Part shown: piece after piece, positions 1 to 64,000 of the stretch
How the letters are laid out: each line of letters starts with the position of its first letter
How positions within the stretch are numbered: position 1 is the stretch's first letter
Position numbers and translations under genes: made by a program
DNA from: Heptranchias perlo
Taxonomy: Eukaryota
NCBI RefSeq assembly: GCF_035084215.1
Contig: NC_090339.1
Span: 12,152,001 to 12,216,000, forward strand
DNA: 64,000 nt
Direction: 5' to 3'
Notes under the pieces: model-generated
What the model saw: only the letters and a program-made list of their open reading frames with translations
Database searches by the model: none
What the model was told of the DNA's origin: nothing

Positions 1-190
1 AGACCGTGGGATCCTTCACCACGTGTGGCTATTGAGGTAGAGACTAAAACTTAATTTAAAAGGGAATGGGATATATATTTGAAAAGGAGAAATATAAAAT
101 GATCTAGGGGGAAATGGGGTTACAGGGGAGAGCGTCAGCACTCGGAGTTGAATGGCCTCCTCCTGTGCTGTAATTTCTATAATTCTACGA
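1..190 (+). mobile_element. CR1 LINE 3' tail fragment
   Basis: Ends GAATGGCCTCCTCCTGTGCTGTAATTTCTATAATTCTA, like the other CR1 tails in the window. Confidence 0.75.
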
Positions 191-5460: not shown

Positions 5461-6506
5461 TCTGTTGGAGGCCAATCATCTCAGCCCCAGGGCATTGCTG
5501 CAGGAGTTCCTCAGGGCAGTGTCCTAGGCCCAACCATCTTCAGCTGCTTCATCAATGACCTTCCCTCCATCATAAGGTCAGAAATGGGGATGTTCGCTGA
5601 TGACTGCACAGTGTTCAGTTCCATTCGCAACCCCTCAGATAATGAAGCAGTCCGAGCCTGCATGCAGCAAGACCTGGACAACATCCAGGCTTGGGCTGAT
5701 AAGTGGCAAGTAACATTCGCGCCAGATAAGTGCCAGGCAATGACCATCTCCAACAAGAGAGAGTCTAACCACCTCCCCTTGACATTCAATGGCATTACCA
5801 TCGCCGAATCCCCCACCATCAACATCCTGGGGGTCACCATTGACCAGAAACTTAACTGGACCAGCCATATAAATACTGTGGCTACGAGAGCAGGTCAGAG
5901 GCTGGGTATTCTGCGGCGAGTGACTCACCTCCTGACTCCCCAAAGCCTTTCCACCATCTACAAGGCACAAGTCAGGAGTGTGATGGAATACTCTCCACTT
6001 GCCTGGATGAGTGCAGCTCCAACAACACTCAAGAAGCTCGACACCATCCAAGATAAAGCAGCCCGCTTGATTGGCACCCCATCCACCACCCTAAACATTC
6101 ACTCCCTTCACCACCGGCGCACTGTGGCTGCAGTGTGCACCATCCACAGGATGCACTGCAGCAACTCGCCAAGGCTTCTTCGACAGCACCTCCCAAACCC
6201 ACGACCTCTACCACCTAGAAGGACAAGGGCAGCAGGCGCATGGGAACAACACCACCTGCACGTTTCCCTCCAAGTCACACACCATCCCGACTTGGAAATA
6301 TATCGCCGTTCCTTCATTGTCGCTGGGTCAAAATCCTGGAACTCCCTTCCTAACAGCACTGTGGGAGAACCGTCACCACACGGACTGCAGCGGTTCAAGA
6401 AGGCGGCTCACCACCACCTTCTCGAGGGCAATTAGGGATGGGCAATAAATGCCGGCCTTGCCAGTGACGCCCACATCCCGTGAACGAATAAAAAAAAGTA
6501 AAAAAA
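5461..6506 (+). mobile_element. CR1-group LINE family B, 5'-truncated, young
   Basis: RT motifs GVPQGSVLGP and FADD in an open frame to 6435, short 3' UTR, poly(A), TSD AATAAAATC at 5452-5460 and 6507-6515. Confidence 0.93.
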
Positions 6507-7088
6507 AATAAAATCAACCTTTTCTACTCCCTCAGCATTGTGCTTTCACCTGCAACACTAGTGCAAGGAAACACAGTATTACGTCACTAGAGCAATGTAC
6601 AAGTTATACTTATGATTTAACTTAATAAAAACGCATGCATACTCCTGACCCATTGGCTTTTGTGACATTTCACTGGTACTTTTCCCAGTCCTACCAATGT
6701 GGGAGAATATAAACTTTTAAAATGATTAACGTGCCATGGGAGGCTATTTCTGTCTATTGTTACAGAGTAATTTCAATAATTACTAACAGTTACCAAAACC
6801 TTGCAACTATACAGATTAAAACATTATTGGGGAAAGGGGATCTAAAATGCTACTAATAGTTGAGTACAATAAAAATTTCATAATCATGTTTCAAATATGT
6901 GATCTGGCCTGTCTTGTGTAGGAGGTTATGTTCTGACACATCACCTTTAAAGACTTTATGAATAAAGGACCACATTTTATTAATGCAAGTCATTTAAAAA
7001 AAAGTGGAATCTAAGCTCCTATGTTGCGTGATACAACTGAACAACTCTTTGAGTTCAGTTTAGTGGAGGGACTGCAATCAGACAAGAA

Positions 7089-8059
7089 TATAGACAAGCT
7101 GGGTGAGTGGGCGGAGATTTGGCAGATGCAATATAATATTGGAAAATGTGAGGTTATGCACTTTGGCAGGAAAAATCAGAGAGCAAGTTATTTTCTTAAT
7201 GGCGAGAGACTGGAAAGTACTGCAGTACAAAGGGATCTGGGGGTCCTAGTGCAAGAAAATCAAAAAGTTGGTATGCAGGTGCAGCAGGTGATCAAGAAAG
7301 CCAACGGAATGTTGGCTTTTATTGCTAGGGGGATAGAATATAAAAACAGGGAGGTATTGCTGCAGTTATATAGGGTATTGGTGAGACCGCACCTGGAATA
7401 CTGCATACAGTTTTGGTCTCCATACTTAAGAAAAGACATACTTGCTCTCGAGGCAGTACAAAGAAGGTTCACTCGGTTAATCCCGGGGATGAGGGGGCGG
7501 ACATATGAGGAGAGGTTGAGTAGATTGGGACTCTACTCATTGGAGTTCAGAAGAATGAGAGGCGATCTTATTGAAACATATAAGATTGTGAAGGGGCTTG
7601 ATCGGGTGGATGCAGTAAGGATGTTCCCAAAGATGGGTGAAACTAGAACTAGGGGGCATAATCTTAGAATAAGGGGCTGCTCTTTCAAAACTGAGATGAG
7701 GAGAAACTTCTTCACTCAGAGGGTGGTAGGTCTGTGGAATTTGCTGCCCCAGGAAGCTGTGGAAGCTACATCATTAAATAAATTTAAAACAGAAATAGAC
7801 AGTTTCCTAGAAGTAAAGGGAATTAGGGGTTATGGGGAGCGGGCAGGAAATTGGACATGAAGCTGAGTTCGGATCGGTCAATGCCCTGTGGGTGGCGGAG
7901 AGGGCCCAGGGGCTGTGTGGCCGGGTCCTGCTCCTACTTCTTGTGTTCTTTAGATTTGTGGTTGGGATCAGATCAGCCATGATCTTATTGAATGGCGGAG
8001 CAGGCTCGAGGGGCCGATTGGCCTACTCCTGCTCCAATTTCTTATGTTCTTATGTTCTT
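7089..8059 (+). mobile_element. CR1 LINE family A, 5'-truncated, young
   Basis: RT C-terminus (LVRPHLEYC, RGDLIETYKI), 3' (TTCTTATG)n tail, probable TSD AAGAA. Nearly identical to 56389-56957. Confidence 0.93.
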
Positions 8060-9424: not shown

Positions 9425-10402
9425 AGAATCATAAGTTACAGCACAGAAGGAGGCTATTCAGCCCATCGAGTCCGTGCCGGTTCTATCCAAGAGCAATGCA
9501 GCTAGTCCCACTCCCCTGTCCTATCCCCGTAGACCAGCAATTTTTTTCCTTTCAAGTACTTATCCAGTTCCCTTCTGAAAGCCATGAATGAATCTGCCTC
9601 CACCACCCCCTCGGCAGTGCATTCCAGATCCTAACCACTCGCTGTGTAAAAAGGTTTTTCCTCATATCACCTTTGGCTCTTTTGCGAATCACCTTAAATC
9701 TATGTTCTCTGATTCTTGACCCTTCCGCCAATGGGAACAGTTTCTCTCTATCCTGTCTAGACTCTTCATGATTTTAAATACCTCTATCAAATCTCCCCTC
9801 AACCTTGTCTGTTCCAAGGAGAACAACCCCAGCTTCTCCAGTCTATCCCCGTAACTAAAGTCCTTCATCCCTGGAATCATTCTAGTAAATCTTTTCTGTA
9901 CCCTCTCCAAGGCCTTCACATCTTTCCTAAAGTGCAATGCCCAGAACTGGACACAATTCTCCAGCTGTGGACAAACCAGTGTTTTATAAAGGTTAATCAT
10001 GACTTCCTTGCTTTTGTAATCTATGCCTCTACTTATAACGCCCAGGATCCCGTATGCTTTTTTAACCGCTTTCTCAACCTGCCCTGTCACTTTCAACGAT
10101 TTGTGCACATACACCCGCAGGTCCTTCTGTTCCTGCACCCTCTTTAGAATTGTGCCCTCTAGTTTATATTGACTCTTCTCATTCTTCCTTCCAAAATGGA
10201 TCACTTTGCATTTTTCTGTGTTAAATTTCATCTGCCACGTGTCCGCCCATTCCACCAGCCTGTCTATATCCTCTTGAAATCTTTTACTATCCTCCTCACT
10301 GTTCACTACACTTTCAAGTTGTGTGTCATCTGCAAGTTTTGAAATTGTGCTCTGTACACCCAAATCCAAGTCATTAATATATATCAAGAAAAGCAGTGGT
10401 CC
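9425..10402 (-). mobile_element. CR1 LINE 3' fragment
   Basis: ORF 9689-10387 has IYINDL, ADDT, RGDLIEVFKI. CR1 tail near 9425-9480. Confidence 0.9.
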
Positions 10403-10529
10403 TGCTTGACTTGCAGTTATAAATTTATGAAGAGGATCTAATGTAAAATTCAGCTGAAGCTTCTTAACATGGATTTGATAAGTGATTGTTCAGGATGTAT
10501 TCGGACTTTAGATTCTCTGGATTTTTAAA

Positions 10530-11537: not shown

Positions 11538-12344
11538 AATATGCTTCAATTGGACTTGGGTGTACAGGGCACAATTTCAAAATTTGCAGATGACACAAAA
11601 CTTGGAAGTGTAGTAAAAAGTGAGGAGGATAGTAATAGACTTCAAGAGGACATAGACAGGCTGGTGGAATGGACTGACACATGGCAGATGAAATTTAACA
11701 CAGAGGAGTGTGAAGTGATACATTTTGGCAGGAAGAATGAGGAGAGGCAATGTAAACTAAATAGTACAATTCTAAAGGGAGTGCAGGAACAGAGAGACCT
11801 GGGGGTATATGTGCACAAATCTTTGAAGGTGGCAGGACAGGTTGAGAAAGCGGTTTAAAAAAGCACACGGAATCCTGGGCTTTATAAATAGATGTGGAGA
11901 TGCCGGTGATGGACTGGGGTTGACAATTGTAAACAATTTTACAACACCAAGTTATAGTCCAACAATTTTATTTTTAATTCCACAAGCTTTCGGAGGCTTC
12001 CTCCTTCCTCAGGTGGTGTGGAAATGACATTTTCGAATCCTTCGCATTTTAAAATCACAGAACAATGCCTGGTGATTACTGCCCGTTGCCAAGGCAATCA
12101 CAGAGAGCAGACAGAATGGTGTCACCTAAAAAGGCCACCGAATATACAAACCCCCCCCCAAAAAAAAGAGAGAGAGAGAAGGAAGACAGTCAATGACCCG
12201 TTATATTAAAAACAGATAACATTTGTTCGCTGGTGGGGTTACGTGTAGTGTGACATGAACCCAAGATCCCGGTTGAGGCCGTCCTCATGGGTGCGGAACT
12301 TGGCTATCAATTTCTGCTCGACGATTTTGCGTTGTCATGTGTCG

Positions 12345-12584
12345 ATGCGACAACGGATGAACGGACACCGCGCAACAATCGCCAAACAGGAGGGTTCTCT
12401 CCCTGTCGGGGAACACATCAGCAGTCATGGACATTCAGCCACCGACCTTCGGGTAAGCCTACTCCAAGGCGGCCTTCGAGACACACGACAACGCAAAATC
12501 GTCGAGCAGAAATTGATAGCCAAGTTCCGCACCCATGAGGACGGCCTCAACCGGGATCTTGGGTTCATGTCACACTACACGTAA
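12345..12584 (+). pseudogene. C-terminal fragment of Penelope-type GIY-YIG endonuclease
   Basis: MRQRMNGHR...VGEHISSHGH...EQKLIAKFRTHEDGLNRDLGFMSHYT*: RxRxxxH, HxxxxxH and ExxLI...GLN motifs typical of PLE endonucleases. Confidence 0.85.
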
Positions 12585-12810
12585 CCCCACCAGCGAACAA
12601 ATGTTATCTGTTTTTAATATAACGGGTCATTGACTGTCTTCATTCTCTCTCTCTCTCTCTTTTTTTTGGGGGGGGGTTTGTATATTCGGTGGCCTTTTAG
12701 GTGACACCTTTCTGTCTGCTCACTGTGATTGCCTTGGCAACGGGCAGTAATCACCAGGCATTGTTCTGTGATTTTAAAATGCGAAGGATTCGAAAATGTC
12801 ATTTCCACAC

Positions 12811-12845
12811 CACCTGAGGAAGGAGGAAGCCTCCGAAAGCTTGTG
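12811..12845 (+). ncRNA. Minimal type I hammerhead ribozyme in PLE pseudo-LTR (mirror copy on - strand at 11981-12015)
   Basis: CAC-CTGAGGA-A-GGAGG-AAG-CCTCC-GAAA-GC-TT-GTG: CUGANGA and GAAA cores, 5-bp stem II, stem I CAC/GTG, vestigial palindromic stem III (AAGCTT). Confidence 0.85.
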
Positions 12846-13919
12846 GAATTAAAAATAAAATTGTTGGACTATAACTTGGTGTTGTAAAATTGTTTACAAT
12901 TTATAAATAGAGGCATAGAGTACAAAAGCAAGGAGGTTGTGTTGAACGTTTATAAAACACTGGTTCATCCACAACTCGAGTATTGTGTCCAATTCTTGGC
13001 ACCGCACTTTAAGAAGGATGTGAAGGCCTTAGAGAGGTTGCAAAAAAGATTTACTAGAATGGTTCCAGGGATGAGGGACTTCAGTTACGTGGATAGACTG
13101 GAGAAGCTGGGGTTGTTCTCTTTAGAGCAAAGAAGGTTAAGAGGAGATTTGATAGTGTTCAAAATCATGAAGGATTTAGATAAAGTAAATGGAGAGAAAG
13201 TGTAGAATAGCCACCTTCTGAAGTGTCCCGAAAACTGCACTTTGTCAACAAATAATATTTGTGACATCCGCAACCATATTTGCAATGCATACTTGAACTT
13301 AACGACATTATAGAGTATTCCTTTATTTAAGCAGTATCTAGGAAGTTCATGTGCTAGTTTTCCACGAGAGATCAACAGATTGGTCTCTTAACAATCTAGT
13401 TATTCCTTTTAGCTTTCCAGATGCCCATCTATTTAAAGTTTTGGTTACTTTAATCCAAATAAAACTCAGGCAAAGTTTACTGGTGGTACATGGGGAATAC
13501 CAATGTGATTTATGGTCTGACCAGATTAATACAGTGTCAATGTTTGCTACACTGGCACATCACCGTGGTCAGGGGTGATGTTTGATTTTAATATAAAAAT
13601 CTACAGATCGATCGCTGATTATACCAGTTACTTGGTTAGGTGAGATTGTTTCACAATGCAAATATTCTACTGTAGTGTTTTCATTTAAGCCTAGTAATTG
13701 CTCAGAATATTGTGCAAACACTTAAGCATCCTCATACTAAATTGCGCTGTCTGCTATTTTGATAATGGCCTGTTTATTGTCAATGAGTTGACACATCAGT
13801 TAAAAATAGAAGAGAATAATTTGACAGGAATGTGTTTGGCATTTGTACAATGACATCACTTAACAATAATGCACTCCCCATCACTGCATCAACTATTTGT
13901 TTTTTAAATGATTTCACTA

Positions 13920-20165: not shown

Positions 20166-23100
20166 GATAGAACATAAGAGATAGGAGCAGGAGTAGGCTA
20201 TTCGGCCCCTCGAGCCTGCTCCGCCATTCAATGAGATCATGGCTGATCTGATTTTTACCTCAATTCCACTTTCTCGCCTGTTCCCCATATCCTTTGACTC
20301 CCTTGCTGATTAAAAACTTGTCTAACTCAGCCTTGAATATATTCAATGACTCAGCCTCCACCACTCTTTGGGGCAAAGAATTTCAAATGTTCACAACCCT
20401 CTGAGAGAAGAAATTTCTCCTCATCTCTGTCTTAAACGGGTGACTCCTTATTCTGAGACTATGCCCCCTAGTTCTAGATTCTCCTATGAGGGGAAACATC
20501 CTCTCAGCATTTACCCTGTCAAGCCCCCTCAGAATCTTATATGTTTCAATAAGATCTCCTCTCATTCTTCTAACTCCAGTGAGTATAAGTCCAACCTGCT
20601 CGATCTTTCCTCGTAAGAAAACCCTTCCATACCCGGAATCAACCTAGTGAACCTTCTCTGAACCGCTTCCAATGCAAATATATCCTTCCTTAAATAAGGG
20701 AACCAAAACTGTACGCAGTACTCCAGGTGTGGTCTCACCAGCACTCTGTTCAGTTGTAGCAAGACTTCCCTGCTTTTATACTTCATCCCCCTTGAAATAA
20801 AGGCCAATATTCCATTTGCCTTCCCAATTACCTGCTGCACCTAACTTTTTGTGTTTCATGTATGAGGACCCCCAAATCCCTCTGTACCTCAGCATTCTGT
20901 AGTCTTTCTCCATTCACATAATATTTTGCTTTTTTATTCTTCTTACCAAAGTGGATGAATTCACATTTTTCCACATTATATTCCATCTGCCAATTTTTTG
21001 CCCACTCGCTTAACCTATCTATATCCCTTTGCCGACATTTTGTGTCCTCCTCACAACTTACTTTTCCACCTATCTTTGTATCATCAGCAAATTTGGCCAC
21101 AATACACTCGCATCCTTCATCCAAGTCATCGATATAGATTGTAAATAGTTGAGGCCCCGGCACTGATCCCTGTGGCACCCCACTAGTTACAGATTGCTAT
21201 CCTGAAAATGACCCTTTTATCCTGACTCTGTTTTCTGTTAGCATAGAGAGAGGATTGGCGAACTAATATGTTACCCCCACATCATGAGCTCTTACCTTGT
21301 GCAGTAATCTTTTATGTGGCACCTTATCGAATTACTTTTGGAAATCCAAATGCAATACATCTACTGGTTCCCCTTTATCCACCCTGCTCGTTACTTTCTC
21401 AAAGAATTCTAATAAATTTATCAAACACTATATCCCTTTCATAAAACCATGTTGACTCTCCTTGATTTTATTTTGAGTCTCTAAATGTCCTGCTACTACT
21501 TCCTTAATAATCGATTCTAGCATTTTCCCAATGACCGATGTTAGGCTAACTGGTCTATAGTTTCCTGCTTTCTGTCTCACTCCCTTCTTGAACAGCGGCA
21601 TTACATTTGCGGTTTTCCAATCCACTGGGATCTTTCCAGAATCTAGTGAATTTTGGAAGATTACAACTAAAGCATCCACTATCTCCGTAGCCACTTCTTT
21701 TAAGACCCTCGGATGCAAGCCATCGGGTCCAGGGGACTTGTCAATCTGCAGACCCATTAGTTTGCCTAGTACTTTTTCTCTAGTGATAGTGATTGTTTTT
21801 AGATCCTTCCTCCCCTTTGCCCCTTGATTATCTACTATTATTGGTATGCTTTTAGTGTCTTCTACTGTGAAGAAGACAGATACAAAATATCTGTTCAATT
21901 CCTCTGCCATTTCCTTGTTTTCCATTATTATTTCCCCAGTCTCATCCTCTAAGGGACCTATACTTACTTTAGCTACTCTCTTCCTTTTTATATACTTGTA
22001 AAAGCTCTTACTGTCAGTTTTTATATTTCTTGCTAGTTTACTCTCATAATTTGTTTCCTCCCTCATTTTAAGTCCTCCTTTGTTGGTTTCTAAAGTTTTC
22101 GCATTTTTGGGCTTACCACTAATCTTTGCCACTTTGTATGCCTTTTCTTTTAACTTGATACCATCCTTAACTTCCTTAGTTAGCTATGGTTGGTGCACCC
22201 TTCTCCTGGAGTCTTTCCTCTTAACAGGGATATATTTTTGTTGCAAGTCATAAAATATCTTTTTAAATGTCTGCCACTGCTTATCCACAGTCATACCTTC
22301 TAATCTGTTTCCCCAGTCCACTTTAGCCAACTCTGTCCTCATGCCATTGTAATTGCCCTTATTTAGGTTTAATACAGTTGTTTCAGATCCAAGATCCTCA
22401 CTCTCAAACTGGATGTGAAATTCATCATATTATGATCACTGTTTCCAAAGGGATCCTTTACTTTGAGGTCATTAATTAATCCTGTCTCATTACCCATCAC
22501 CAGATCCAAAATGGCCTGCTCCCTGGTTGGTTCCACAACCTATTGTTCTAAGAAACAATCCCGAATACATTCAATGAACTCATCCTCAGGGCTAATTTTG
22601 CCAATTTGATTTGTCCAATCTATATGAAAGTTAAAATCACCCATGATTATTCCATTACCTTTTTTACAAGCCCCCATTATTTCTTGATTTATATTTTGCC
22701 CTACAGTGTAGCTACTGTTAGGGGGCCTATAGACTACTCCCACCAGTGATTTCTTACCCATGCTAATTCTTACCTCCACCCAAATTGATTCTACATCTTG
22801 AGCTTCTGAGCCAAGATCATTTCTCACTATTGTACTAATTTCATCCTTTATTAACAGAGCTACCCCACCACCTTTACCTTTCTTCCTATCCTTCCGAAAT
22901 GTCAGATACCCCTGAATATTCAGTTCCCAGCCTTGGTCACCTTGCAACCATGTTTCTGTAATGGCCATGAGATCATACCCATTTGTTTCTATTTGTGCCG
23001 TCAATTCATCTATCTTATTACGAATGCTGCACGCATTCAGATAAAGAACCATTAATTTTGTCTTTTTGCCATTTTTTCCTATTCTGACCCCATTTGCTGG

Positions 23101-23382
23101 TGCACTCTTATGTTTGTTCGCGCTGTCCCTCCCTGTCACACTCTGGTTATCGTTACCCCTATCTCTTCCCTGTACTACTTCCTTGTCCTTTCTCTTCAAC
23201 ATTCTAAATTCCCCCCCACCCCCCATTTAGTTTAAAGCCCTATCTACAGCCCTAGTTATTCGATTCGCCAGAACACTGGTCCTTGCATGGTTTAGGTGAA
23301 GCCCGTCCTGATGGAACAGCTCTCTTTTTCCCTAGTACTGGTGCCAGTTCACCATGAATCGAAACCCACTTCTCCCACACCA
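20166..23382 (-). mobile_element. CR1 LINE with whole but disrupted ORF2 and the 3' end of ORF1
   Basis: YLNACSI, ITETWL, GDFN, KSPGPDG, QGSVPGP, FADDT. Upstream, DGLHLN...RAVDRALN* resembles the SGNH-esterase end of CR1 ORF1. Confidence 0.93.
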
Positions 23383-42349: not shown

Positions 42350-44255
42350 ATGGCATTAATGAACTCATGGCATTAATGAACTCATGGCATTTCAGATACT
42401 GGGCAGATACATTAATGAACATGACATTGCAGATACTGGGCAGGTACATTAATGCACATGGCATTGATACTGGGTAGGTACATTAATGAACTCATGGCAT
42501 TGCAGATACTGGGCAGGTACATTAATGAACACGACATTGCAGGTACATTAATGAACATGACTTTTTTATATTCGTTCACGGGATGTGGCCTCGCCGGGAT
42601 GGGCAATAAATGCTGGCCTCGCCGGTGAGGCCAGCATTTATTGCCCATCCCTAATTACCCTTGAGAAGGTGGCGGTGAACCGCCTTCTTGAACCGCTGCA
42701 GGTCGTGTGGTGAAGGTTCTCCCACAGTGCTGTTAGGAAGGGAGTTCCAGGATTTTGACCCAGCGACAATGAAGGAACGGCGATATATTTCCAAGTCGGG
42801 GTGGTGTGTGACTTGGAGGGGAACGTGCAGGTGGTGTTGTTCCCATGTATCTGCTGCTCTTGTCCTTCTAGGTGGTAGAGGTCGCGGGTTTGGGAGGTGC
42901 TGTCGAAGAAGCCTTGGCGAGTTGCTGCAGTGCATCCTATGGATGGTACACACTGCAGCCACTGTGCGCTGGTGGTGAAGGGAGTGAATGTTTAGGGTGG
43001 TGGATGGGGTGCCAATCAAGCGGGCTGCTTTGTCCTGGATGGTGTCGAGCTTCTTGAGTGTTGTTGGAGCTGCACTCATCCAGGCAAGTGGAGAGTATTC
43101 CATCACACTCCTGATTTGTGCCTTGTAGATGGAGGAAAAGCTTTGGGGAGTCAGGAAGTGAGTCACTCGCCGCAGAATACCCAGCCTCTGACCTGCTCTT
43201 GTAGCCACAGTATTTATATGGCTGGTCCAGTTAAGTTTCTGGTCAATGGTGACCCCCAGGATGTTGATGGTGGGAGATTCGGCGATGGTAATGCCGTTGA
43301 ATGTCAAGGGGAGGTGGTTAGACTCTCTCTTGTTGGAGATGGTCATTGCCTGGCATTCGTCTGGCACAAATGTTACTTGCCACTTATCAGCCCAAGCCTG
43401 GATGTTGTCCAGGTCTTGTTGCATGTGGGCTCGGACTGCTTCATTATTTGAGGGGTTGCGAAAAGAACTGAACACTGTGCAATCATCAGCGAACATCCCC
43501 ATTTCTGACCTTATGATGGAGGGAAGGTCTTTGATGAAGCTGCTGACGATGGTTGGGCCTAGGACACTGCCCTGAGGAACTCCTGCAGCAATGTCCTGGG
43601 GCTGAGATGATTGGCCTCCAACAATCACTACCATCTTGCTTTGTGCTAGGTATGACTCCAGCCACTGGAGAGTTTTCCCCCTGATTCCCATTGATTTCAA
43701 TTTTACTAAGGCTCCTTGGTCAAATGCTGCCTTGATGTCAAGGGCAGTCACTCTCACCTCACCACTGGAATTCAACTCTTTTGTCCATGTTTGGACCAAG
43801 GTTGTAATGAGGTCTGGAGCCAAGTGGTCCTGGCGGAACCCAAACTGAGCATCGGTGAGCAGGTTATTGGTGAGTAAGTGCCGCTTGATAGCACTGTCGA
43901 CGACACCTTCCATCACTTTGCTGATGATTGAGGGTAGACTGAGGGGACGGTAATTGGCCGGATTGGATTTGTCCTGCTTTTTGTGGTCAGGACATACCTG
44001 GGCAATTTTCCACATAGTCTGGTAGATACTGGGTAGATACATTAATGAACACGACATTGCAGATACTGGGCAGGTACATTAATGAACATGGCATTGCAGA
44101 TACTGGGCAGATACATTAATGAACATGGCATTGCAGATACTGGGCAGGTACATTAATGAACATGACATTGCAGAAACTGGGCGGGTACATTAATGAACAT
44201 GACATTGCAGAAACTGGGCGGGTACATTAATGAACTCATGGCATGCAGATACACT
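42350..44255. repeat. ~37-39 bp minisatellite (CATTAATGAACATGACATTGCAGATACTGGGCAGGTA) split by a LINE
   Basis: Units at 42350-42561 and 44024-44255 with the same consensus and orientation. Confidence 0.9.
42562..44027 (-). mobile_element. CR1-group LINE family B, 5'-truncated
   Basis: NYRPLSL, QFGFR, DIKAAFD, GVPQGSVLGP and FADD in ORF 42651-44057; homologous to 5461-6506. Confidence 0.93.
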
Positions 44256-53911: not shown

Positions 53912-54194
53912 AGGCGCTAAATCAGGCCGTGTAGCTCCCGTTGTTTTGGCACTACACAGCCTCTCCGACAACCAAGATGGCATCTTGGATGCACACGCAC
54001 GTTTCCTGCGTGACGTGCGCCAGACGCCATCTTGGTATAGGAGTTAGCGCACGCGCAGATAACGAACGCTGGAATCATGTAAAGTAATGAGAAAATAGCT
54101 TCAATCAGTGTGCAACGCTGATTTAAAGTGATAGACACTATTTTGGGACTTAACACTCAACTCAACGCACAGCCTTAACCCCAACCATCTGAAT
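53912..54194. mobile_element. CpG-rich repeat (probable MITE) interrupted by CR1; related inverted fragment at ~60510-60615
   Basis: Internal IR CCAAGATGGC...GCCATCTTGG. The GTGACGTGC.C.AG.ACGCCAT motif recurs in reverse at ~60515-60542. Confidence 0.5.
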
Positions 54195-56957
54195 GTGCTG
54201 TTGGGGAGGGTTTAAACTAAAGTGGCAGGGGGTTGGGAACCTGAGCAGGGAGACAGAGGAAAGCGTAACAGGAAGGGACAGAAGGTATGGAGTAATAGGT
54301 AAAGTGTTAAAAAAGGAAAAAGCAGGAACTAAGCGTCACAAAACAGATTTGAAAGTTCTTTATCTGAATGCACGTAGCATTCATAACAAAATGGACGAGT
54401 TAACGGCACAAATAACTACGTATGGGTATGATCTTGTGGCCATTACAGAAACATGGCTGCAGGGTGACAACGACTGGGAATTAAATATGCCAGGGTATTT
54501 AACAATCAGGAAGGACAGGCAGGAAGGAAGGGGAGGTGGGGTGGCTATGTTAATAAAGAAAGGAATCACTGTAATACAGATAAATGATATTGGGACAAAG
54601 CATCAAGATAATGAAACAGTTTGGGTGGAGATAAGGAATAATAAGGGGAAAAAAACACTCGTGGGCGTAGTATATAGGCCTCCTAATAGTTGCAACTCTG
54701 CTGGAAGAAGTATTAATCAGGAAATAGTCGGGGCATGTAATAAGGGAACAGCTATAATTATGGGGGATTTTAATTATCATATTAACTGGACAAATCAAAT
54801 TGGGCAGAGCAGCCTTGAGGAAGAGTTCATTGAGTGCATCAGGGATGGATTTCTTGAGCAGTATGTAACTGATCCTAAAAGGGGGCAGGCAACCTTGGAC
54901 CTGGTCCTGTGTAATGAGTCAGGATTAATTAATAATGTCCTAGTTAAGGATCCCCTTGGAACGAGCGACCACAACATGGTTGAATTCCATATCCAATTAA
55001 AGGGTGAGAAGGTTGATTCTCAAACAAGCGTACTGAGCTTGAATAAAGGAGACTATGATGGTATGAGAGCCGAATTGATTAAAGTGGACTGGGAAAATAG
55101 ATTAAAGGGTAAGACGGTACATGAGCAGTGGTGTTAATTTAGGGAGTTATTTTACAACTTTCAAAATAAATATATTCCACTGAGGAAAAAAGGGTGTAAA
55201 AGAAATGACAGCCATCCGTGGCTAAGTAAAGAAATCAAGGATAGTATCCGACTAAAAACAAGGACATATAAGGTAGCCAAACTTAGTGGGAGGATAGAAG
55301 ATTGGGAATTCTTCAAAAGACAGCAAAAAGTAACTAAAGGATTGATTAAGAAAGGGAAGTTAGATTATGAAAAGAAATTAGCAAAAAATATAAAAACAGA
55401 TAGCAAGAGTTTCTACAGTTATATAAAAAGAAAAAGGGTGGCTAAGGCAAATGTAGGTCCCTTGGAGGATGAGACCAGGAAATTAATGGTGGGAAACATG
55501 GCGATGGCAAAAATGCTGAACAAATATTTTGTTTCAGTCTTTACAGTAGAGGACACTAAGAATATCCCAACACTGGACAAACAGGGGACTCTACGGGGGG
55601 AGGAGCTAAATACGATTAAAATCACTCAGGAGATGGTACTCAGTAAATTAATGGGACTCAAAGCGGATAAATCCCCTGGACCTGATGGCTTCCATCCTAG
55701 GGTCTTGAGGGAAATGGCAGTAGGGATTGTGGATGCTTTGGTGATAGTTTTCCAAAATTCCCTGGACTCAGGAGAGGTCCCGGCAGATTGGAAAACTGCT
55801 AATGTAACACCGCTATTTAAAAAGGGTAGTAGGCAGAAGGCTGGAAATTATAGGCCAGTTAGCCTAACATCTGTGGTGGGTAAAATTTTGGAGTCTATTA
55901 TTAAGGAGACAGTAATGGAACATTTAGATAAGCATAATTTAATAGGACAAAGTCAGCATGGCTTTATGAAGGGGAAGTCATGTCTGACAAATTTGCTTGA
56001 GTTCTTTGAGGATATAACGTACAGGGTGGATAAAGGCGAACCAGTGGACGTAGTGTATTTAGACTTCCAGAAGGCATTCGACAAGGTGCCACATAAAAGA
56101 TTATTACTTAAGATAAAAAATCACGGGATTGGGGGTAATATTCTGGCATGGGTGGAGGATTGGTTATCTAACAGGAAGCAGAGAGTTGGGATAAATGGTT
56201 CATTTTCGGACTGGCAACCAGTAACCAATGGTGTTCCACAGGGGTCGGTGCTGGGTCCCCAACTCTTTACAATCTATATTAACGATTTGGAGGAGGGGAC
56301 CGAGTGCAACATATCAAAATTTGCAGATGATACAAAGATGGGAGGGAAAGTAGAGAGTGAGGAGGACATAAAAAACCTGCAAGGGGATATAGACAGGCTG
56401 GGTGAGTGGGCGGAGATTTGGCAGATGCAATATAATATTGGAAAATGTGAGGTTATGCACTTTGGCAGGAAAAATCAGAGAGCAAGTTATTTTCTTAATG
56501 GCGAGAGACTGGAAAGTACTGCAGTACAAAGGGATCTGGGGGTCCTAGTGCAAGAAAATCAAAAAGTTGGTATGCAGGTGCAGCAGGTGATCAAGAAAGC
56601 CAACGGAATGTTGGCTTTTATTGCTAGGGGGATAGAATATAAAAACAGGGAGGTATTGCTGCAGTTATATAAGGTATTGGTGAGACCGCACCTGGAATAC
56701 TGCATACAGTTTTGGTGTCCATACTTAAGAAAAGACATACTTGCTCTCGAGGCAGTACAAAGAAGGTTCACTCGGTTAATCCCGGGGATGAGGGGGTGGA
56801 CATATGAGGAGAGGTTGAGTAGATTGGGACTCTACTCATTGGAGTTCAGAAGAATGAGAGGCGATCTTATTGAAACATATAAGATTGTGAAGGGGCTTGA
56901 TCGGGTTGATGCAGTAAGGATGTTCCCAAAGATGGGTGAAACTAGAACTAGGGGGCA
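54195..56957 (+). mobile_element. Young CR1 family A copy: nearly intact ORF2 (APE + RT), 3' end missing
   Basis: ORFs 54193-55137 and 55342-56991 are in the same frame, separated only by one TAA (55135-55137). YLNARS, TETWL, GDFN, SDHN, DFQKAFD, QGSVLGP, FADD. Confidence 0.95.
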
Positions 56958-58477
56958 CGGGGTAATAGCACATCATGCTACCTGTGCCTAAAAATGGCCC
57001 CTATCGAATTTTTCCCCCATTGTCTCTCTTACCTGTCTGTTGTCTTCATGTTATTATTTCTCTCTATGTCTCCCCTTTTCTGCTTCTGCCTGTCTGTGTG
57101 TATCTCTCTTTCTCTCTCCTCTTTTTCTTCTGCTTTTCCCTCCCTGATTATTCTCTTGCTTCTCTCTCTTGTCTCTTTTTATTCTTCTTTCAGTCGGGAG
57201 GCAGTGGGTAGCATGACATGCTTTAGTGGGGAAAGCATCCTGCAGCTATTGGTGCCTGGTTTTGGTGAGGGGGTTATGGGGAGAGAACAGGGTTAGGGTT
57301 AGGGATTGCTGTAGCAGCCAGCTGACACAGACACAATGGACTGCACCGCCTCCTCCTGTACTGTAAATTTTTATGGTTCTAAATGTGGCCCCCAGTAGCT
57401 CCCTTTCCATCTTCTCCTTCAATTACGTATTTCTTCCCACCCATCACGTTCCCTATCCTTTCACCTTCACATTACCCACTTCCCTTCCGACTACCCCCTC
57501 AATCCCATCACTATCTCTACCTCATCCCCTTTGAATCAAATCTACTGTTTGTATTTAATATTGTTCATTTATCCATTTAGAGTTCAATAAATCGGACTAG
57601 CGGTTTATAGTTTAAGTCACGGTCTGTCGAATGTTTATTATTCCATTTACCAAAATCAAGGAAATCGCATGAGAATGTGCAGTACATCCGTAAGTTGGAA
57701 TACTGTGACAAAGGTTCTTTGCTTGACCTCTGGACTCACTACGTTTGCTTAGATATTAGGCATGTAAATGTACAGTCCAGGTTGTAGGAAGCTGGTGCTC
57801 CCTTACAGAATGGTCTGTGCCTCAGAACACAAAGAAAATTTATAGGGTGACATTCTCCGAGACCACAAGGCACTGGCACAAGCTTACACATTGGAAAATC
57901 CTGGACGCTCTGGCCACAATTATCCATCCATTGTGAGTATATATACTCCCCTCCGGGGATTCTTACTCTGTTCCTTTCCCGTGTCAGCTCGGGCCCTGAC
58001 TCCATTTTGTGCTGAAATGTTGGTGCAAGGCAAAGCCACTTTACATTGATGCTACCGTTGTTGTGTAAGTTCACCCGAAGAGTTTGCTGAGAGAAGCTGG
58101 AATAACTATAGACTCCTTTTAAAATGGTCAACCCGATTTGAATGTTTGTGCTGTACAGTAGCTTGCTTGTTGCTTGAGTGTACCACGTTAATTGTGAATA
58201 AATCTGGACCAGTTATTTAGCTCTATAAAGTATCTGATGGTATGATGTTCTCCAGTCTCCTTGGAGAGAAAATATGGTAGACATCCCATGTATTTGGCAG
58301 TAAGCAGTTTACTGTGAGTAAACCTAACCTATGCTAACTTACATGTAGCAGAGAATAAAAATGCTGGTTTCAGTTCATAATGCAAGAGCCTGTTGGTCAA
58401 ACCAGTTACACAAAGGAACAATGCTAGAGGAAAAAACCTGAAGTATAATGTTCTCCTTTTGTCTTGGAAACACTGAC

Positions 58478-58642
58478 CCCTGCTGCTGCCTCGTAGAGTG
58501 GATGTTCTTCATGTGTGACAGCAAGTGTTGGTCGTCCATTCGACTGTAGAGGGCATTAAAGCGAATTCCATTGCTGTCCTTGTCAGACATCCACATACAG
58601 ACGCTTTCCAACAAGAGGTATTGAGGTAAATTTTCATCTTCA
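58478..58642 (-). CDS. Candidate internal coding exon of an unidentified gene
   Basis: Acceptor TTTTCATTCCATTGATTTCAG, 165-nt open frame EDENLPQYLLLESVCMWMSDKDSNGIRFNALYSRMDDQHLLSHMKNIHSTRQQQG, donor GG|GTCAGT, non-repetitive. No homolog recognised. Confidence 0.45.
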
Positions 58643-59832
58643 CTGAAATCAATGGAATGAAAATTATATGGGTTTGATAAGCAAATTCTGCCAGATTACT
58701 GCCCATGCAGTGAAGATGAAAATTTTACCCCATGGCGTTCCAGACCTAGTGAACCAATCAGGAGCTGGAACCCTTGCTGGTTTTCGCTCTACCGAGGACA
58801 TTGAGGCCAAATGTGGCACATCAACTGACTCAGCAAAGGGTGGAATTATGAAGCTGACATCTCCTGGTTGGTAAGGCTTAGTGGCAACCTGGTTGATATC
58901 TTTACCCCCCTCACCACTGGGGAAGCTATGGAAGGCAGTGCTTTTTTATAAACGTCCAGAGATTTATGTCATAAGAAAGCCTGTGATTAGAAACTGCCAT
59001 TCAGCCCATCAATCACTTTTCATCATACGATGTTCAATTTTTAAATCTGTGCGGCTATGGACTCCTTTCCATTTTATCTAAATCTCCTCAGGGAGATGAC
59101 TAATCACAAGTAAAAATTTCTTAAAAAGATAATAAATCTCAGTAAAATTTCTCCCTGCCCACTGAAGGTAATCAATCAAAAGTTACAGGATATCAATTGA
59201 AAATTATAATTTGCATTATTCCAGCCTGACTGGCATCATTCCACAGATGACATGAATGTGGTTCCAACAGGATTGAAACAATATTGTTTGCTAGATTATC
59301 TGATCATCTATGCCCATATGAGAGAGGGGTTTGTCATGTCTTACAGAGGCTGGAGAGAAGGATGCTATAGGCACCCAGGATTGGCAGTAGTACAGAAACT
59401 TCTTGGTCAGACCCCATCTGGGGTACTGCGTTCAGATTTGAGCACCAAACCTCAGGAGTAATCTATTGGCCTTGGAAGGGGTGCAGTACAGATTCACCAG
59501 AATGATGCCAGAGCTTAAAGACTTAAATTATGAAGATAGGTTGCATAAACCTGGCTTATATTCCTTTAAGTTTAGAAGGTTGAGGGGTGATCTGATCGAG
59601 GTGTTTAAAATGATAAAGGGGTTCGATAGGGTAGATACAGAGAAATTATTTCCTCTGGTGGGGGAATCCAGAACAAGGGCCCAATCTTAAAATTTGAACT
59701 TGGCCATTTAGGAGGGAAATCAGGAAGTAATTTTTCACACAAAGGGTAGTGGAAATCTGGAATTTGCTCCCTCAAAAGGCTGTGGATGCTGGGGCAATTG
59801 AAATTTTCAAGACTGAGATGCATATATTTTTG

Positions 59833-60080
59833 TTGTAAACAATTTTACAACACCAAGTTATAGTCCAACAAATTTATTTTAAATTCCACAAGCTTTCGGA
59901 GGCTTCCTCCTTCCTCAGGTGAACGGTGTGGAAATGAAAACATTTCCACACCGTTCACCTGAGGAAGGAGGAAGCCTCCGAAAGCTTGTGGAATTTAAAA
60001 TAAATTTGTTGGACTATAACTTGGTGTTGTAAAATTGTTTACAATTGTCAACCCCAGTCCATCACCGGCATCTCCACATC
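59833..60080. mobile_element. Miniature fold-back PLE insertion (perfect 104-bp arms, 4-nt loop, ~35-nt tail)
   Basis: 59833-59936 is the exact reverse complement of 59941-60044, loop AAAA. Tail TTGTCAACCCCAGTCCATCACCGGCATCTCCACATC. TSD (C)ATATATTTTTGTT at 59821-59834 and 60080-60093. Inserted in a CR1 3' end. Confidence 0.93.
59954..59992 (+). ncRNA. Minimal hammerhead ribozyme (mirror copy on - strand at 59885-59923)
   Basis: TTCAC-CTGAGGA-A-GGAGG-AAG-CCTCC-GAAA-GC-TT-GTGGA. Confidence 0.85.
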
Positions 60081-61209
60081 ATATATTTTTGTTAGGTAAG
60101 GGTGTCAAGGGATATGGAGCTAAGGCAGGTAAATGGAGTTGAGGTACAGATTATCCATGATCTAAGCAGGCCTGAGGGGCTGAATGGCCTACTCCTGTTC
60201 CAGGTCAGAAGCCAGCACCAGAATGCCTGAAGATGTGTGAAGAAAAAAAATCAAGCCATAGATAGAATCCTAGAAAAGGGACGCAATAGATATATTGGGC
60301 AGCCAAATGGAGCTAATAAGTGGAAAAATATCAAGGTAGGTGCTGGAGGAGTGGATGCCTGATGTACAATAGGTCATTAGGAAACCAGACGTGAGCATCA
60401 ACGGCTTAGTGAATAAAACAGGAAAGAAAACTACCTCACATATTGCAATAAAGAACAAAAGTGTAAATACACTGAAACTGAAAGTTGTGCTAAGACAGTT
60501 CCCAGCTCCCTAAGGGAAAATGGCGTCCTGTGCACGTCACACTGGAAGTGTGCATCTCGGACACCATTTTCGGGGCTTAGGTGTCTGCATAGTGCCTACG
60601 GCCCAATTTAGTCCCAAGTGCCTTCTGGACAGGAAGACAAGGGGGATAATACCAGGGAGAGAGGGAACAAAGAAAGAAACATAATTTCCAGTTATAATTC
60701 AACAGCTTAATATCTAATGTCATTAGATGGCTTAACTTCAATGTGAAATCACATTTCTAAATGCACTGCAGTCGTACAACATCACTTGGGTGATAGATGC
60801 AGTAAATGCTCCACATTTACCCTCCTAATGGTCGTCATGATCATCATACAGGACTCGTAATGTATCATTAACTTACTCTAGTCAGCTGCTTTTATTTAAT
60901 AAGATTGTACAAAAGCCAAAAGTAATTCAAATAGACTGTTTTTGTGGTAGTATTAGCTTGATAACATGATGTTTTTCATCCACTTAGCAATCATACAGCC
61001 ATCATTATGGACTGCGTCTCAAATGGCCTATTTTCTGACCTGGTATTTAGAGAACTGAATAGAGAGAGGGAGAAAGTTGCAGGGCTATGGGGAAAGAGCA
61101 TGGGAGTAGGATTAACTATATAGCTCTTCAAAGTGCCGGCACAGGCATGATGAGCCGAATGGCCTCCATCTGTGCTGTACGATTCTATAAGTGTTTGTAA
61201 ATTGTAAAT

Positions 61210-61981
61210 TCCAGAATTTGCTATCAAAATAACGGTGAGGTTAATGGCGATCACCGTTGTGTATGCGCAAATTGCACGGCTACTTCAGGCAAGGGCAGAG
61301 GCGCAGTTACACGTGGAAATCTGGAAGTTTCTATCCGAGATGCGCTGCTCTGCGGTTAGCTTCGCAAAAATAGCATCTCGCTGTCTGCCTCACCATTGAA
61401 ATGCATTGAACGACGCGAAGTTCCTGCATGGTAGATACGAACTAAACTCACCACAGAAAGCTAGGGTTTGTCCATTTCAGTCTAAGTATCCTTTTTAATA
61501 GTATGATAATTGTTAATTACTGCCAAACAACCTCTCTGGCAGTGAAAATTAACTTTTACAAGCATGGAGTTTCCTTCCTTCAGGTTTTAATTGTTGGAGA
61601 TTTAAAAAAAGATTAAATTAACATTTTTTAAAAACTTTTTTCTTTGTTTTTTTTTCTCTTTCTTAATCCAATCTTTCTTTCCCTCTCTTTATTTCTCTTT
61701 CTGTACCTGATCTAACCTTGAATTCACTATTCTGACTTACACTTCCTGGTTCAGAATCTGCGCTGTTCATTTCACAATCCTTCAATCTGATTGGTTAAGG
61801 ACATACACAGTTGCTTGCCCTGTTCGCTCAGATCCCAGATGCCCTGTAGAGGGCGCCGCAACGTTCCCATCACGCACTTCCAGCAACTTGCAGTGCAAAA
61901 TATCATTGCGATTAAACGGGCAGGGGCAAGTCGGACTAATGGCGGGCACTGTTCGTTGACCGGTTACAGCAAATATTGGCC
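61210..61981. mobile_element. Harbinger-type MITE, same family as 10993-11537
   Basis: CCAGAATTTGCT ... AGCAAATATTGGCC|ATT; internal similarity to 11000-11530. Confidence 0.65.
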
Positions 61982-62917
61982 ATTAACTCTTTGCACCAGT
62001 GAACCATCTTCCTGAAAAGCGATTCTTTTCAATGAAGGCTGCTTGGGAGGGGAAAGCAAAGGGATGAGTCGTCCAGGTTGAAATTCTGCCATAACTATTT
62101 TGCCCTCAAAGCACATGTCAATGCTGGTTTGCGAAATGATTTAATAAGGTAATTTTATGATGGCAGAAGAAAATGTGTTGCATTTAAGAAATAACAATGT
62201 ACATACCTTGATGACAAGGTCATTGTGAATTCAACTACTGACAGTGTGCCTGGGGACATTTGTGTTTGCGAAGATGGAGTGAGCCCAGACAAAGGGGTAT
62301 TTAGGAAGAAATCTACTTATGACTTGTACTGTTATATAAGATGCATTGCAGATGTATAGCAACTCCCCCAATCAGTCATTATTGTTTTGCTAAAATGTTT
62401 TACATCTGTTGTAAAATTATAATTCTGGAGCCTCCACTAAATGTTTTTTATGCTAGTTAAAGGGCAGTTGTACTCTCAAAGTAAAGTAATTACTCCCTTA
62501 TGTGTTCCACAGTGTTATGTTTATTATAGATTCCTATCTATGAAAGATAATAGCACAGAAATGGCTGCTGTAGATTTTGTTCTCCACCAGTTATGAATGT
62601 AAATCGAATGCAAACAATATCCTCGACAGACCTTTCGCATTGGTTATGGAAAAGAGAGGAAAGTTATCTAACAATACTTAGAGAAACCGGAATAGCCCTT
62701 CAGCCAATCAAATCTCCCCCTACATTTTTTTATTCGTTCATGGGATGTGGGCATCGCTGGCGATGCCGGCATTTATTGCCCATCCCTAATTGCCCTTGAG
62801 AAGGTGGTGGTGAGCCGCCTTCTTGAACCCTGCAGTCCGTGTGGTGAAGGTTCTCCCACAGTGCTGTTAGGAAGGGAGTTCCAGGATTTTGACCCAGCGA
62901 CGATGAAGGAATATTTC

Positions 62918-63162
62918 AATTGTAAACAATTTTACAACACCAAGTTATAGTCCAGCAATTTTATTTTAAATTCACAAGCTTTCGGAGGCTTCCCCCTTCG
63001 TCAGGTGAACGATGTGAAATATCGATTTTCACATCGTTCACCTGACGAAGGGGGAAGCCTCCGAAAGCTTGTGAATTTAAAATAAAATTGCTGGACTATA
63101 ACTTGGTGTTGTAAAATTGTTTACAATTGTCAACCCCAGTCCATCACCGGCATCTCCACATC
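62918..63162. mobile_element. Miniature fold-back PLE insertion (102-bp arms, 7-nt loop, ~34-nt tail)
   Basis: 62918-63019 is the reverse complement of 63027-63128, loop TATCGAT. Same tail ending CCACATC. TSD AGGAATATTTCAA at 62907-62919 and 63163-63175. Inserted in a family-B LINE. Confidence 0.93.
63037..63075 (+). ncRNA. Minimal hammerhead ribozyme, variant (mirror copy on - strand at 62971-63009)
   Basis: TTCAC-CTGACGA-A-GGGGG-AAG-CCTCC-GAAA-GC-TT-GTGAA. The N of CUGANGA differs, stem II keeps pairing through G-U, stem I is a perfect 5 bp. Confidence 0.87.
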
Positions 63163-64000
63163 AGGAATATTTCAAAGTCAGGGTGGTGTGTGACTTGGAG
63201 GGGAACGTGCAGGTAGTGTTGTTCCCATGTGCATGCTGCCCTTATCCTTCTAGGTGGTAGAGGTCACGGGTTTGGGAGGTGCTGTCGAAGAAGCCTTGGC
63301 GAGTTGCTGCAGTGAATTCTGTGGATGGTGCACACTGCAGCCACAGTGCGCCGGTGGTGAAGGGAATGAATGTTTAGGGTGGTGGTTGGGGTGCCAATCA
63401 AGCGGGCTGCTTTGTCCTGGATGGTATCGAGCTTCTTGAGTGTTGTTGGAGCTGCACTCATCCAGGCAAGTGGAGAGTATTCCATCACACTCCTGACTTG
63501 TGCCTTGTAGATGGTGGAAAGGCTTTGAGGAGTCTGGAGGTTAGTCACTTGCCGCAGAATACCCAGCCTCTGACCTGCTCTTGTAGCCACAGTATTTATA
63601 TGGCTGGTCTGGTCAATGGTGACCTCCAGGATGTTGATGGTGGGGGATCAGCGATGGTAATGCAGTTGAATGTCAAGGGGAGGTCGTTATACTCTCTTTT
63701 GTTGGAGATGGCCATTGCCTGGCACTTGTCTGGCACGAATGTTACTTGCCACTTATGAGCCCAAGCCTAAATGTTGTCCAGGTCTTGCTGCATGCGGGTA
63801 CAGACTGCTTCATTTTCTGAGGGGTTGCGCATGGAACTGAACACTGTGCAATCGTCAGCGATCATCCCCATTTCTGACCTTATGATGGAGGGAAGGTCAT
63901 TGATGAAGCAGCTGAAGATGGTTGGGCCTAGGACACTGCCCTGAGGAACTCCTGCAGCAATGTCCTGGGACTGAGATGATTGGCCTCCAACAGCCACTAC

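What the first reader, a model, noticed from the sequence alone, without database searches (positions are those of the whole stretch)
59833..63162. Two ~245-bp 'ribozyme hairpin' elements: perfect fold-backs made only of a hammerhead plus the Penelope terminus
Seen: 59833-60080 and 62918-63162 are independent insertions (different hosts, different 13-14 bp TSDs) with the same design. Each has perfect 102-104 bp arms, a 4-7 nt loop, a hammerhead in each arm facing outward, a ~35-nt one-sided tail and no coding sequence. Both fold back only ~15-20 nt upstream of the CUGANGA core. Known: PLE pseudo-LTRs carry minimal hammerheads and PLE insertions often have inverted termini. Inference: the near-identical size and turn-around point suggest either a structure-determined stop/template switch just past the ribozyme, or a distinct non-autonomous hairpin retroelement class mobilised by the PLE protein. 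A repeat finder would mis-call these as MITEs.
Basis: partly seen in the sequence, partly recalled or inferred. Interest (0 to 1): 0.85.

Follow-up and report, generated by a model that had tools for sequence, protein, structure and literature searches.

The report
Penelope leader copies joined into hairpins
These 245-bp DNA hairpins are the commonest insertion product of a very abundant Penelope-type jumping gene, not a separate element, and their turning point sits about 30 bases downstream of the element's TATA-like box, so they are likely two back-to-back copies of just the front end of its messenger RNA.

Summary
In detail: perfect 104/103-nt arms, 4/7-nt loops, 14/13-bp target duplications, a minimal hammerhead in each arm and a one-sided tail. 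They belong to a Neptune-like Penelope family with at least 28,342 copies and an intact ~900-aa RT/GIY-YIG gene. In 156 insertions picked by their 3' end only, 75 are short hairpins, each with a different centre, grading into inverted insertions up to 3.3 kb. So this is not a separate hairpin element. The turning point is not random either. cDNA ends pile up 0-20 nt upstream of the ribozyme core, and the pile-up moves with an upstream TATA-like box rather than with the ribozyme: about -17 in one subfamily, -10 to -13 in another, both about TATA+29/30. The arm equals the predicted 5' UTR and stops at the ATG. Likely mechanism: both staggered target nicks prime reverse transcription at two fixed sites near the start codon, the cDNAs run off the mRNA 5' end, and their ends are joined. 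The architecture is known. I found no paper linking the truncation point to the transcription start. The start site itself is inferred, not measured.

The parts
59821..59834 (+). element 1, left target-site duplication (14 bp, overlaps the arm by 2 nt)
   Evidence: empty-site spacing in host CR1-like repeat
59833..59936 (-). element 1, inverted arm without the tail (inferred cDNA primed at the inner start site)
   Evidence: fixed outer end across copies
59885..59923 (-). minimal type I hammerhead motif in left arm of element 1
59937..59940 (.). element 1 centre; three of the four A's continue the left arm along its template, so the left arm is the longer (about -21 versus -18 from the core)
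   Evidence: comparison with natural copy L108
59941..60044 (+). element 1, sense arm = predicted 5' UTR/pLTR from near the inferred start site through the hammerhead
59954..59992 (+). minimal type I hammerhead motif in right arm of element 1 (predicted cut after 59987)
   Evidence: stems I and II fold
60045..60081 (+). element 1, Penelope 'tail', ending just before the ORF's ATG
60080..60093 (+). element 1, right target-site duplication
62907..62919 (+). element 2, left target-site duplication (13 bp)
62917..63019 (-). element 2, inverted arm without the tail, hammerhead at 62971-63009
63020..63026 (.). element 2 centre: 5 added nt plus AT; the sense arm starts at the A 29 nt after the TATA-like box of its subfamily
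63027..63129 (+). element 2, sense arm, hammerhead at 63037-63075
63130..63164 (+). element 2, Penelope tail
63163..63175 (+). element 2, right target-site duplication
11891..12901 (-). third family member: same inverted design, long arms reaching into the GIY-YIG coding end; the tail-less arm is ~140 nt longer than the tail-bearing arm

Best explanation
The hairpins are single insertion events of an abundant Neptune-like Penelope retrotransposon, likely made when both staggered nicks in the target prime reverse transcription on the 5' leader of the element's mRNA and the two short cDNAs, likely running off at the transcription start, are joined end to end. Shown: family membership; two fixed outer ends ~35 nt apart, the outer one at the ATG; 12-13-bp duplications; unique centres; a pile-up of inner ends about 29-30 nt after a conserved TATA-like box in subfamilies with different TATA-to-ribozyme spacing. 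Inferred: that this point is the transcription start; that the protein (a predicted dimer in the Anolis relative) starts internally at two sites; that the centre forms by microhomology or short self-templated synthesis. Long inverted insertions would be the same reaction on read-through or tandem RNA. The hammerhead is a passenger in the leader.
For: At least 28,342 exact copies of the 43-nt end. Intact ORF starting at the tail end, unit 3.07 kb, in tandem (RVT_1 hit). Of 88 inverted insertions, 84 have the left end within a 5-nt window and 83 have the right end within 10 nt, matching the two RT start sites that bound the tail in vitro (PMC11167929). Stop rate peaks at -20..0. Genome-wide exact counts, spacing-46 subfamily: ~3,650 at -17, 2,933 at -18, 2,435 at -21, 2,102 at -25, i.e. 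loss of 20%, 6% and 3.6% per nt. Spacing-40 subfamily: 7,048 at -7, 6,447 at -10, 5,265 at -13, 4,613 at -19, i.e. 2.9%, 6.5% and 2.2% per nt. Modes differ between spacing groups in the sample (Fisher p=0.006, windows chosen after seeing the data). The tail-less arm is the longer in 31 of 75, so it is not simply copied from the tail-bearing cDNA. Zero-loop palindromes occur (4 of 75; a recurrent one). Six loci have arms from different haplotypes.
Against: No transcription start was measured; the read tool gave only contigs. No excess of cap-derived G before the inferred +1 (by eye, 9 G, 15 A and 9 T among host-flanked rows). Rank tests on the sample do not separate the TATA frame from the ribozyme frame (p=0.22 and 0.17; the unrestricted test favoured the ribozyme frame, p=0.43 versus 0.0003, though it is skewed by the -4 cut-off). 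The peak is broad (only 77 of 122 ends lie in -20..0), and local microhomologies shape its modes. The -14 to -17 count in the first subfamily is confounded by a T-run length variant. The two arms are far more alike than independent priming on random RNAs would give (8 shared-variant mismatches against ~159 expected; 28 of 75 pairs within 2 nt against 8.4 expected). They must therefore usually come from one RNA or one source locus, or one arm is copied from the other.
Confidence: 0.6

Rival explanations
1. Same priming sites and same run-off point, but the centre forms by snap-back: one cDNA folds on itself and is copied, and the cDNA from the other nick anneals to that copy.
For: Arms share a haplotype at about 93% of loci and their lengths are coupled even away from the peak. 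Some centres read as 3-6-nt-loop self-priming, and short self-templated additions occur even in simple copies. Self-priming was proposed for rotifer PLEs (PMC3846280).
Against: Zero-loop palindromes cannot form by folding a single strand. Long inverted insertions have unrelated arm lengths joined by 0-6-nt overlaps. Some centres hold up to 200 nt of other DNA. It still needs priming at both nicks, so it differs from the best explanation only at the centre; both routes may operate.
Confidence: 0.17
2. The stop is set by RNA structure at or just upstream of the hammerhead.
For: The peak lies within 20 nt of the core in all subfamilies, and the unrestricted rank test did not separate subfamilies in this frame. 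A small second cluster at +30..+34 (11 of 244 ends) lies at the foot of stem I, beside the predicted cut.
Against: At -13..-19 one subfamily loses 2.2% per nt while the other loses about 20% at -17/-18. The upstream sequence differs between subfamilies, while the TATA-like box and a pyrimidine-purine step at about +29 are kept. Ribozyme mutants did not change insertion products in vitro (PMC11167929).
Confidence: 0.12
3. A non-autonomous hairpin element that transposes as a unit.
For: Some centres recur: one 5-nt loop in 8 of the 30 copies most similar to element 2, and one zero-loop centre at several loci.
Against: 75 of 75 centres in the unbiased sample are distinct. The recurrent centres sit on different haplotypes and are explained by 2-4-nt self-complementary ends. 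The left end is fixed, as in long insertions, not variably truncated. No full survey of flank transduction was made.
Confidence: 0.05
4. Ordinary random 5' truncation, with long palindromes later trimmed at the centre, or an assembly artefact.
For: Long perfect palindromes are unstable (recalled), and symmetric trimming would explain equal arm lengths. No contig laid was shown to span either hairpin.
Against: The stop rate falls to 0-0.005 per nt beyond -40 and simple copies end in the same zone. Duplications, a one-sided tail and arm mismatches at 34 of 87 loci are not features of fold-back read artefacts.
Confidence: 0.06

Closest known systems
Endonuclease-bearing Penelope-like elements, Neptune clade, with inverted pLTR and 30-40-bp tail (PMC8557442, PMC3846280, PMC2377424; passages read)
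   Same: RT plus C-terminal GIY-YIG ORF, tandem units, inverted 5'-truncated copy, one-sided tail, palindromes at the inverted junction, TATA- and Inr-like motifs in the pLTR.
   Different: Here about half of all insertions are leader-only hairpins of roughly 110-280 bp, and the truncation point tracks the TATA-like box. The passages read give no such quantification and propose self-priming on an antisense template or endonuclease resolution for the tail.
Minimal hammerheads of metazoan PLEs (PMC4209133; results and discussion read)
   Same: Type I core, one unpaired base before stem II, palindromic stem III position. That paper already notes pairs of motifs 100-700 bp apart on opposite strands, ascribed to truncated PLEs.
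   Different: It does not describe the boundaries, target duplications or origin of those pairs.
Poseidon element of Anolis in vitro (PMC11167929; main results read)
   Same: Internal RT start at two adjacent sites bounding the tail, cleavage and extension of both target strands, predicted dimer, ribozyme not needed for insertion, 5' truncation of the RNA shortens the product.
   Different: There the start sites lie 111-118 nt into the ORF; here they flank the last ~35 nt of the 5' UTR. That work does not treat inverted or hairpin products.
Non-LTR retrozymes (PMC7229834, listing only; bioRxiv 10.64898/2026.07.22.740005, first fifth read)
   Same: Short non-coding hammerhead-bearing repeats related to PLE pLTRs.
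   Different: Retrozymes are head-to-tail tandems with a shared unit. These are head-to-head, with a unique centre per locus.
L1 twin priming and retroviral minus-strand strong-stop DNA (both recalled)
   Same: Both target nicks prime (L1); cDNA primed near the RNA 5' end runs off it (strong-stop).
   Different: L1's second primer lands internally and yields non-overlapping inversions. Strong-stop DNA is tRNA-primed and jumps rather than integrating. These are analogies, not memberships.
MITEs (PMC8969392, passage)
   Same: Short, non-coding, inverted repeats, high copy number.
   Different: Asymmetric ends, 12-13-bp duplications, variable length, and a retroelement parent.

Membership tests
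EN+ Penelope-like element | single ORF with RT and C-terminal GIY-YIG endonuclease | tested here: met
   ~900-aa ORF in L181, L077, L078 with YIDD and VYL..CxxxC..WYIG motifs read directly. Pfam hits RT only; no GIY-YIG model passed.
EN+ Penelope-like element | partial-tandem/tandem organisation with pLTR | tested here: met
   termini 3.08 kb apart running on into the ORF in L181-L183
EN+ Penelope-like element | inverted truncated copy plus 30-40-bp one-sided tail | tested here: met
   88 of 156 insertions inverted; ends ~35 nt apart
EN+ Penelope-like element | minimal hammerhead in the pLTR | tested here: met
   motif and fold; cleavage activity not tested
Neptune clade | [quoted passage not shown] | tested here: met
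   C-x4-C-x2-C before the nuclease; feature as stated in PMC8557442
Neptune clade | RT phylogeny groups with Neptune | not tested
   no tree built
Non-LTR retrozyme | head-to-tail tandem units each with a hammerhead | tested here: not met
   head-to-head arms
Non-LTR retrozyme | circular RNA intermediate | not testable with these tools
   only contigs available
Non-autonomous element transposing as a unit (MITE- or SINE-like) | uniform length and shared internal sequence across loci | tested here: not met
   75 distinct centres of 75; spans 111-427 bp, 20 of 75 within 230-260 bp
MITE | symmetric terminal inverted repeats matching a DNA transposon | tested here: not met
   one-sided tail; parent is a retroelement
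Run-off copy of a Pol II transcript leader | inner ends fixed relative to the TATA box across subfamilies | tested here: met
   genome-wide counts; sample rank tests not significant
Run-off copy of a Pol II transcript leader | cap-derived extra G at the 5' junction | tested here: inconclusive
   no G excess by eye; end-joining could erase it
Run-off copy of a Pol II transcript leader | mapped RNA 5' ends at the peak | not testable with these tools
   contigs cannot show starts

The most novel reading that the evidence does not exclude
Penelope elements integrate by priming at both target nicks, at two start sites near the start codon. On an ordinary monomeric mRNA this can copy only the ~140-nt leader, giving 'strong-stop' hairpins as the main product; only read-through transcripts of tandem copies yield gene-length insertions. 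One rule would then explain the tail, the inverted pLTR, the mass of solo hammerheads in animal genomes and the need for tandems, and genomic hairpin centres would map the element's germ-line transcription start.
Probability: 0.5. Interest if true: 0.75.

Novelty: new member of a known kind. Interest (0 to 1): 0.5.

Why it matters
How Penelope elements make their tails, inverted repeats and tandems is described as unresolved in the papers read (PMC8557442, PMC2377424, PMC11167929). This family gives thousands of young events in which both priming sites and the stop point can be read off, and it yields predictions testable with the existing in vitro system. Practically, the genome likely holds more than ten thousand near-perfect 100-bp palindromes (about half of at least 28,342 copies), which could be mis-annotated as MITEs or miRNA precursors and may be sources of double-stranded RNA or instability (not tested).

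Tried and rejected
The palindromic query returns hairpins by construction and was used only for centre comparisons. Rfam found no hammerhead model match. A first regex was wrong and found nothing (fixed). A first de-duplication wrongly merged independent insertions at one host-repeat site (fixed). 38 of 200 termini were dropped before counting: 27 belong to a sister family and 11 have very short or rearranged right arms. Six duplicates were also dropped. In one search, three of the 11 shared-variant mismatches come from a mis-paired second terminus in L064 and were discounted. The sister family agrees in direction, with few ends beyond -8, but 7 of its 11 ends at -10..-6 are artefacts of a missing reference, so I do not count it as support. 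Cap-G test: no excess. Read laying: contigs only, swamped by repeats; it neither spans nor contradicts the hairpins, and the 'RNA' run is a guess. Earlier-findings look-ups were empty. A search of the Frangieh supplements held as text found none of my four terms; its figures could not be seen and may bear on inverted products.

Full report
Observation. Both elements are as described. Arms are 104 and 103 nt and fully complementary, loops are AAAA and TATCGAT, and duplications are 14 and 13 bp. A minimal hammerhead scan of the whole window gave four hits, one per arm, and stems I and II fold as expected. Host-repeat paralogues give the empty site for element 1 exactly (29 of 38 paired hits). 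For element 2 they show that the duplicated target includes a locus-specific 8-nt deletion (22 of 32 hits offset accordingly). A third copy at 11891-12901 has ~440-nt arms.

The family. The 43-nt end has 28,342 exact matches in the 3.25-Gb genome. Long copies carry an open RT/GIY-YIG frame (RT by Pfam) with a cysteine motif in the linker, as stated for Neptune. In a tandem copy the ORF's ATG begins four bases after the tail motif, so the sense arm plus tail is the predicted 5' UTR. A TATA-like box lies 38-47 nt upstream of the ribozyme core, depending on subfamily, in all 46 long reference copies listed. In about five of them it deviates by one or two bases.

Unbiased sample. I took termini by 3'-end patterns only (DNA). 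Of 200 termini, 38 lacked the anchoring core and 6 were duplicates, leaving 156. These are 75 short inverted, 13 inverted with a long arm, 34 short without a full inverted arm (20 with a duplication found), and 34 long with no inverted arm in the DNA fetched. Duplications are 12-13 bp in 78 of 108. Short hairpins span 111-427 bp, median 219; 20 of 75 fall in 230-260 bp. All 75 centres differ. Among 61 with tight junctions, 26 overlap by microhomology, 3 are blunt and 32 have added bases. The sample comes from three contigs and favours young copies with exact ends.

Outer ends. In 88 inverted insertions the tail-less end falls within 5 nt in 84, and the tail end within 10 nt in 83, with its mode at the ATG. 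Long inverted insertions start at the same place. This matches the two adjacent RT start sites that bound the tail in the Anolis element, whose protein cuts and extends both strands (PMC11167929, parts 1-2 of 4 read).

Inner ends. The stop rate is 0.028 and 0.041 per nt in the two 10-nt windows upstream of the core, 0.013 in the next two, and 0.007 or less elsewhere. Genome-wide exact counts show about 20% loss at -17/-18 in the spacing-46 subfamily, then 6% and 3.6% per nt. The -17 figure is 2,933 plus 540 scaled by 4/3. In the spacing-40 subfamily the loss is 2.9%, 6.5% and 2.2% per nt over -7..-10, -10..-13 and -13..-19. These figures include mutation. Both peaks fall at about TATA+27..30, at a pyrimidine-purine step, the usual place of a TATA-directed start (recalled). 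Against this: sample rank tests are not significant in either frame for the restricted set and favoured the ribozyme frame in the unrestricted set; the Fisher test on modes (p=0.006) used windows picked after looking; I did not count the first subfamily at -10..-13 genome-wide; and no cap-G excess is visible (by eye).

Relation of the arms. The tail-less arm is longer in 31, shorter in 16 and equal within 2 nt in 28 of 75; 8.4 equal pairs are expected by permutation. Only 2 of 88 mix a long with a short arm. Long pairs have unrelated lengths. Arms share common variants almost always (8 mismatches after discounting a mis-paired entry, against ~159 if drawn from the pool), but six loci, and several more in the selected sets, have arms of different haplotypes. 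So both ends are primed, usually on the same RNA or source and sometimes on two RNAs; later gene conversion could mimic the latter. The centre forms by end-joining, by snap-back, or by both.

Comparison with what is known. Inverted truncated copies and the tail are standard for PLEs (PMC8557442, passages; PMC8969392, passages; PMC2377424, passages). Junction palindromes, TATA/Inr motifs in pLTRs and a self-priming model are in PMC3846280 (passages). Opposite-strand hammerhead pairs 100-700 bp apart are in PMC4209133 (parts 1-2 of 4). PMC5753468 (passages) says nothing on hairpins. The retrozyme preprint (part 1 of 5) concerns tandems. Nine searches showed no paper that ties PLE truncation to the transcription start or proposes twin priming for PLEs; I judged most hits by listing only. 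Subscription papers and Repbase/Dfam entries were not searchable, and I recall, unverified, that Dfam describes some old vertebrate repeats as Penelope-derived hairpins.

Verdict. Real, Penelope-derived, and not a new element class. Its value is as a large natural data set that points to a specific, testable integration mechanism. Interest 0.5.

Noticed in passing
sample-wide (e.g. L034, L041, L204, L234, L239): A minor cluster of inner ends at +30..+34 from the core (11 of 244), just past the predicted hammerhead cut (+29) and at the foot of stem I. It could mark self-cleaved templates, an RT pause or an AATT microhomology.
   Followed up: partly
L193, L196, L216, L257 and others: A sister PLE family, and at least one further subfamily, share the tail and show the same hairpin architecture with TATA-to-core spacing of 36-42.
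   Followed up: partly
L136, L139, L049, L088, L090: Hairpins whose two arms carry different common subfamily variants at up to three positions.
   Followed up: partly
L091, L099, L158: Hairpin centres with 100-200 nt of other DNA between the arms; in L091 it looks like a CR1-type repeat.
   Followed up: no
L153, L159, L167, L171, L247: Independent insertions with different 5' structures at the same position of a host repeat, suggesting a target hot spot. Another AT-rich target recurs at L084, L085, L110, L055 and window 11891.
   Followed up: no
L182, L047/L048, window pattern list (C1:145417004/145418423): Some inverted structures carry the tail on both ends.
   Followed up: no
window 1999-2907 (+): 302-aa open frame that looks like a syntaxin (resemblance recalled, not searched).
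   Followed up: no
window 5212-6435, 7015-7860, 9689-10489, 21428-23226, 42651-44078, 54193-56991: Several LINE-type RT and endonuclease fragments; two such repeat families host the two hairpins.
   Followed up: no
window 58628-58725: An 18-nt perfect inverted repeat with a 62-nt spacer, unrelated to the Penelope arm.
   Followed up: no
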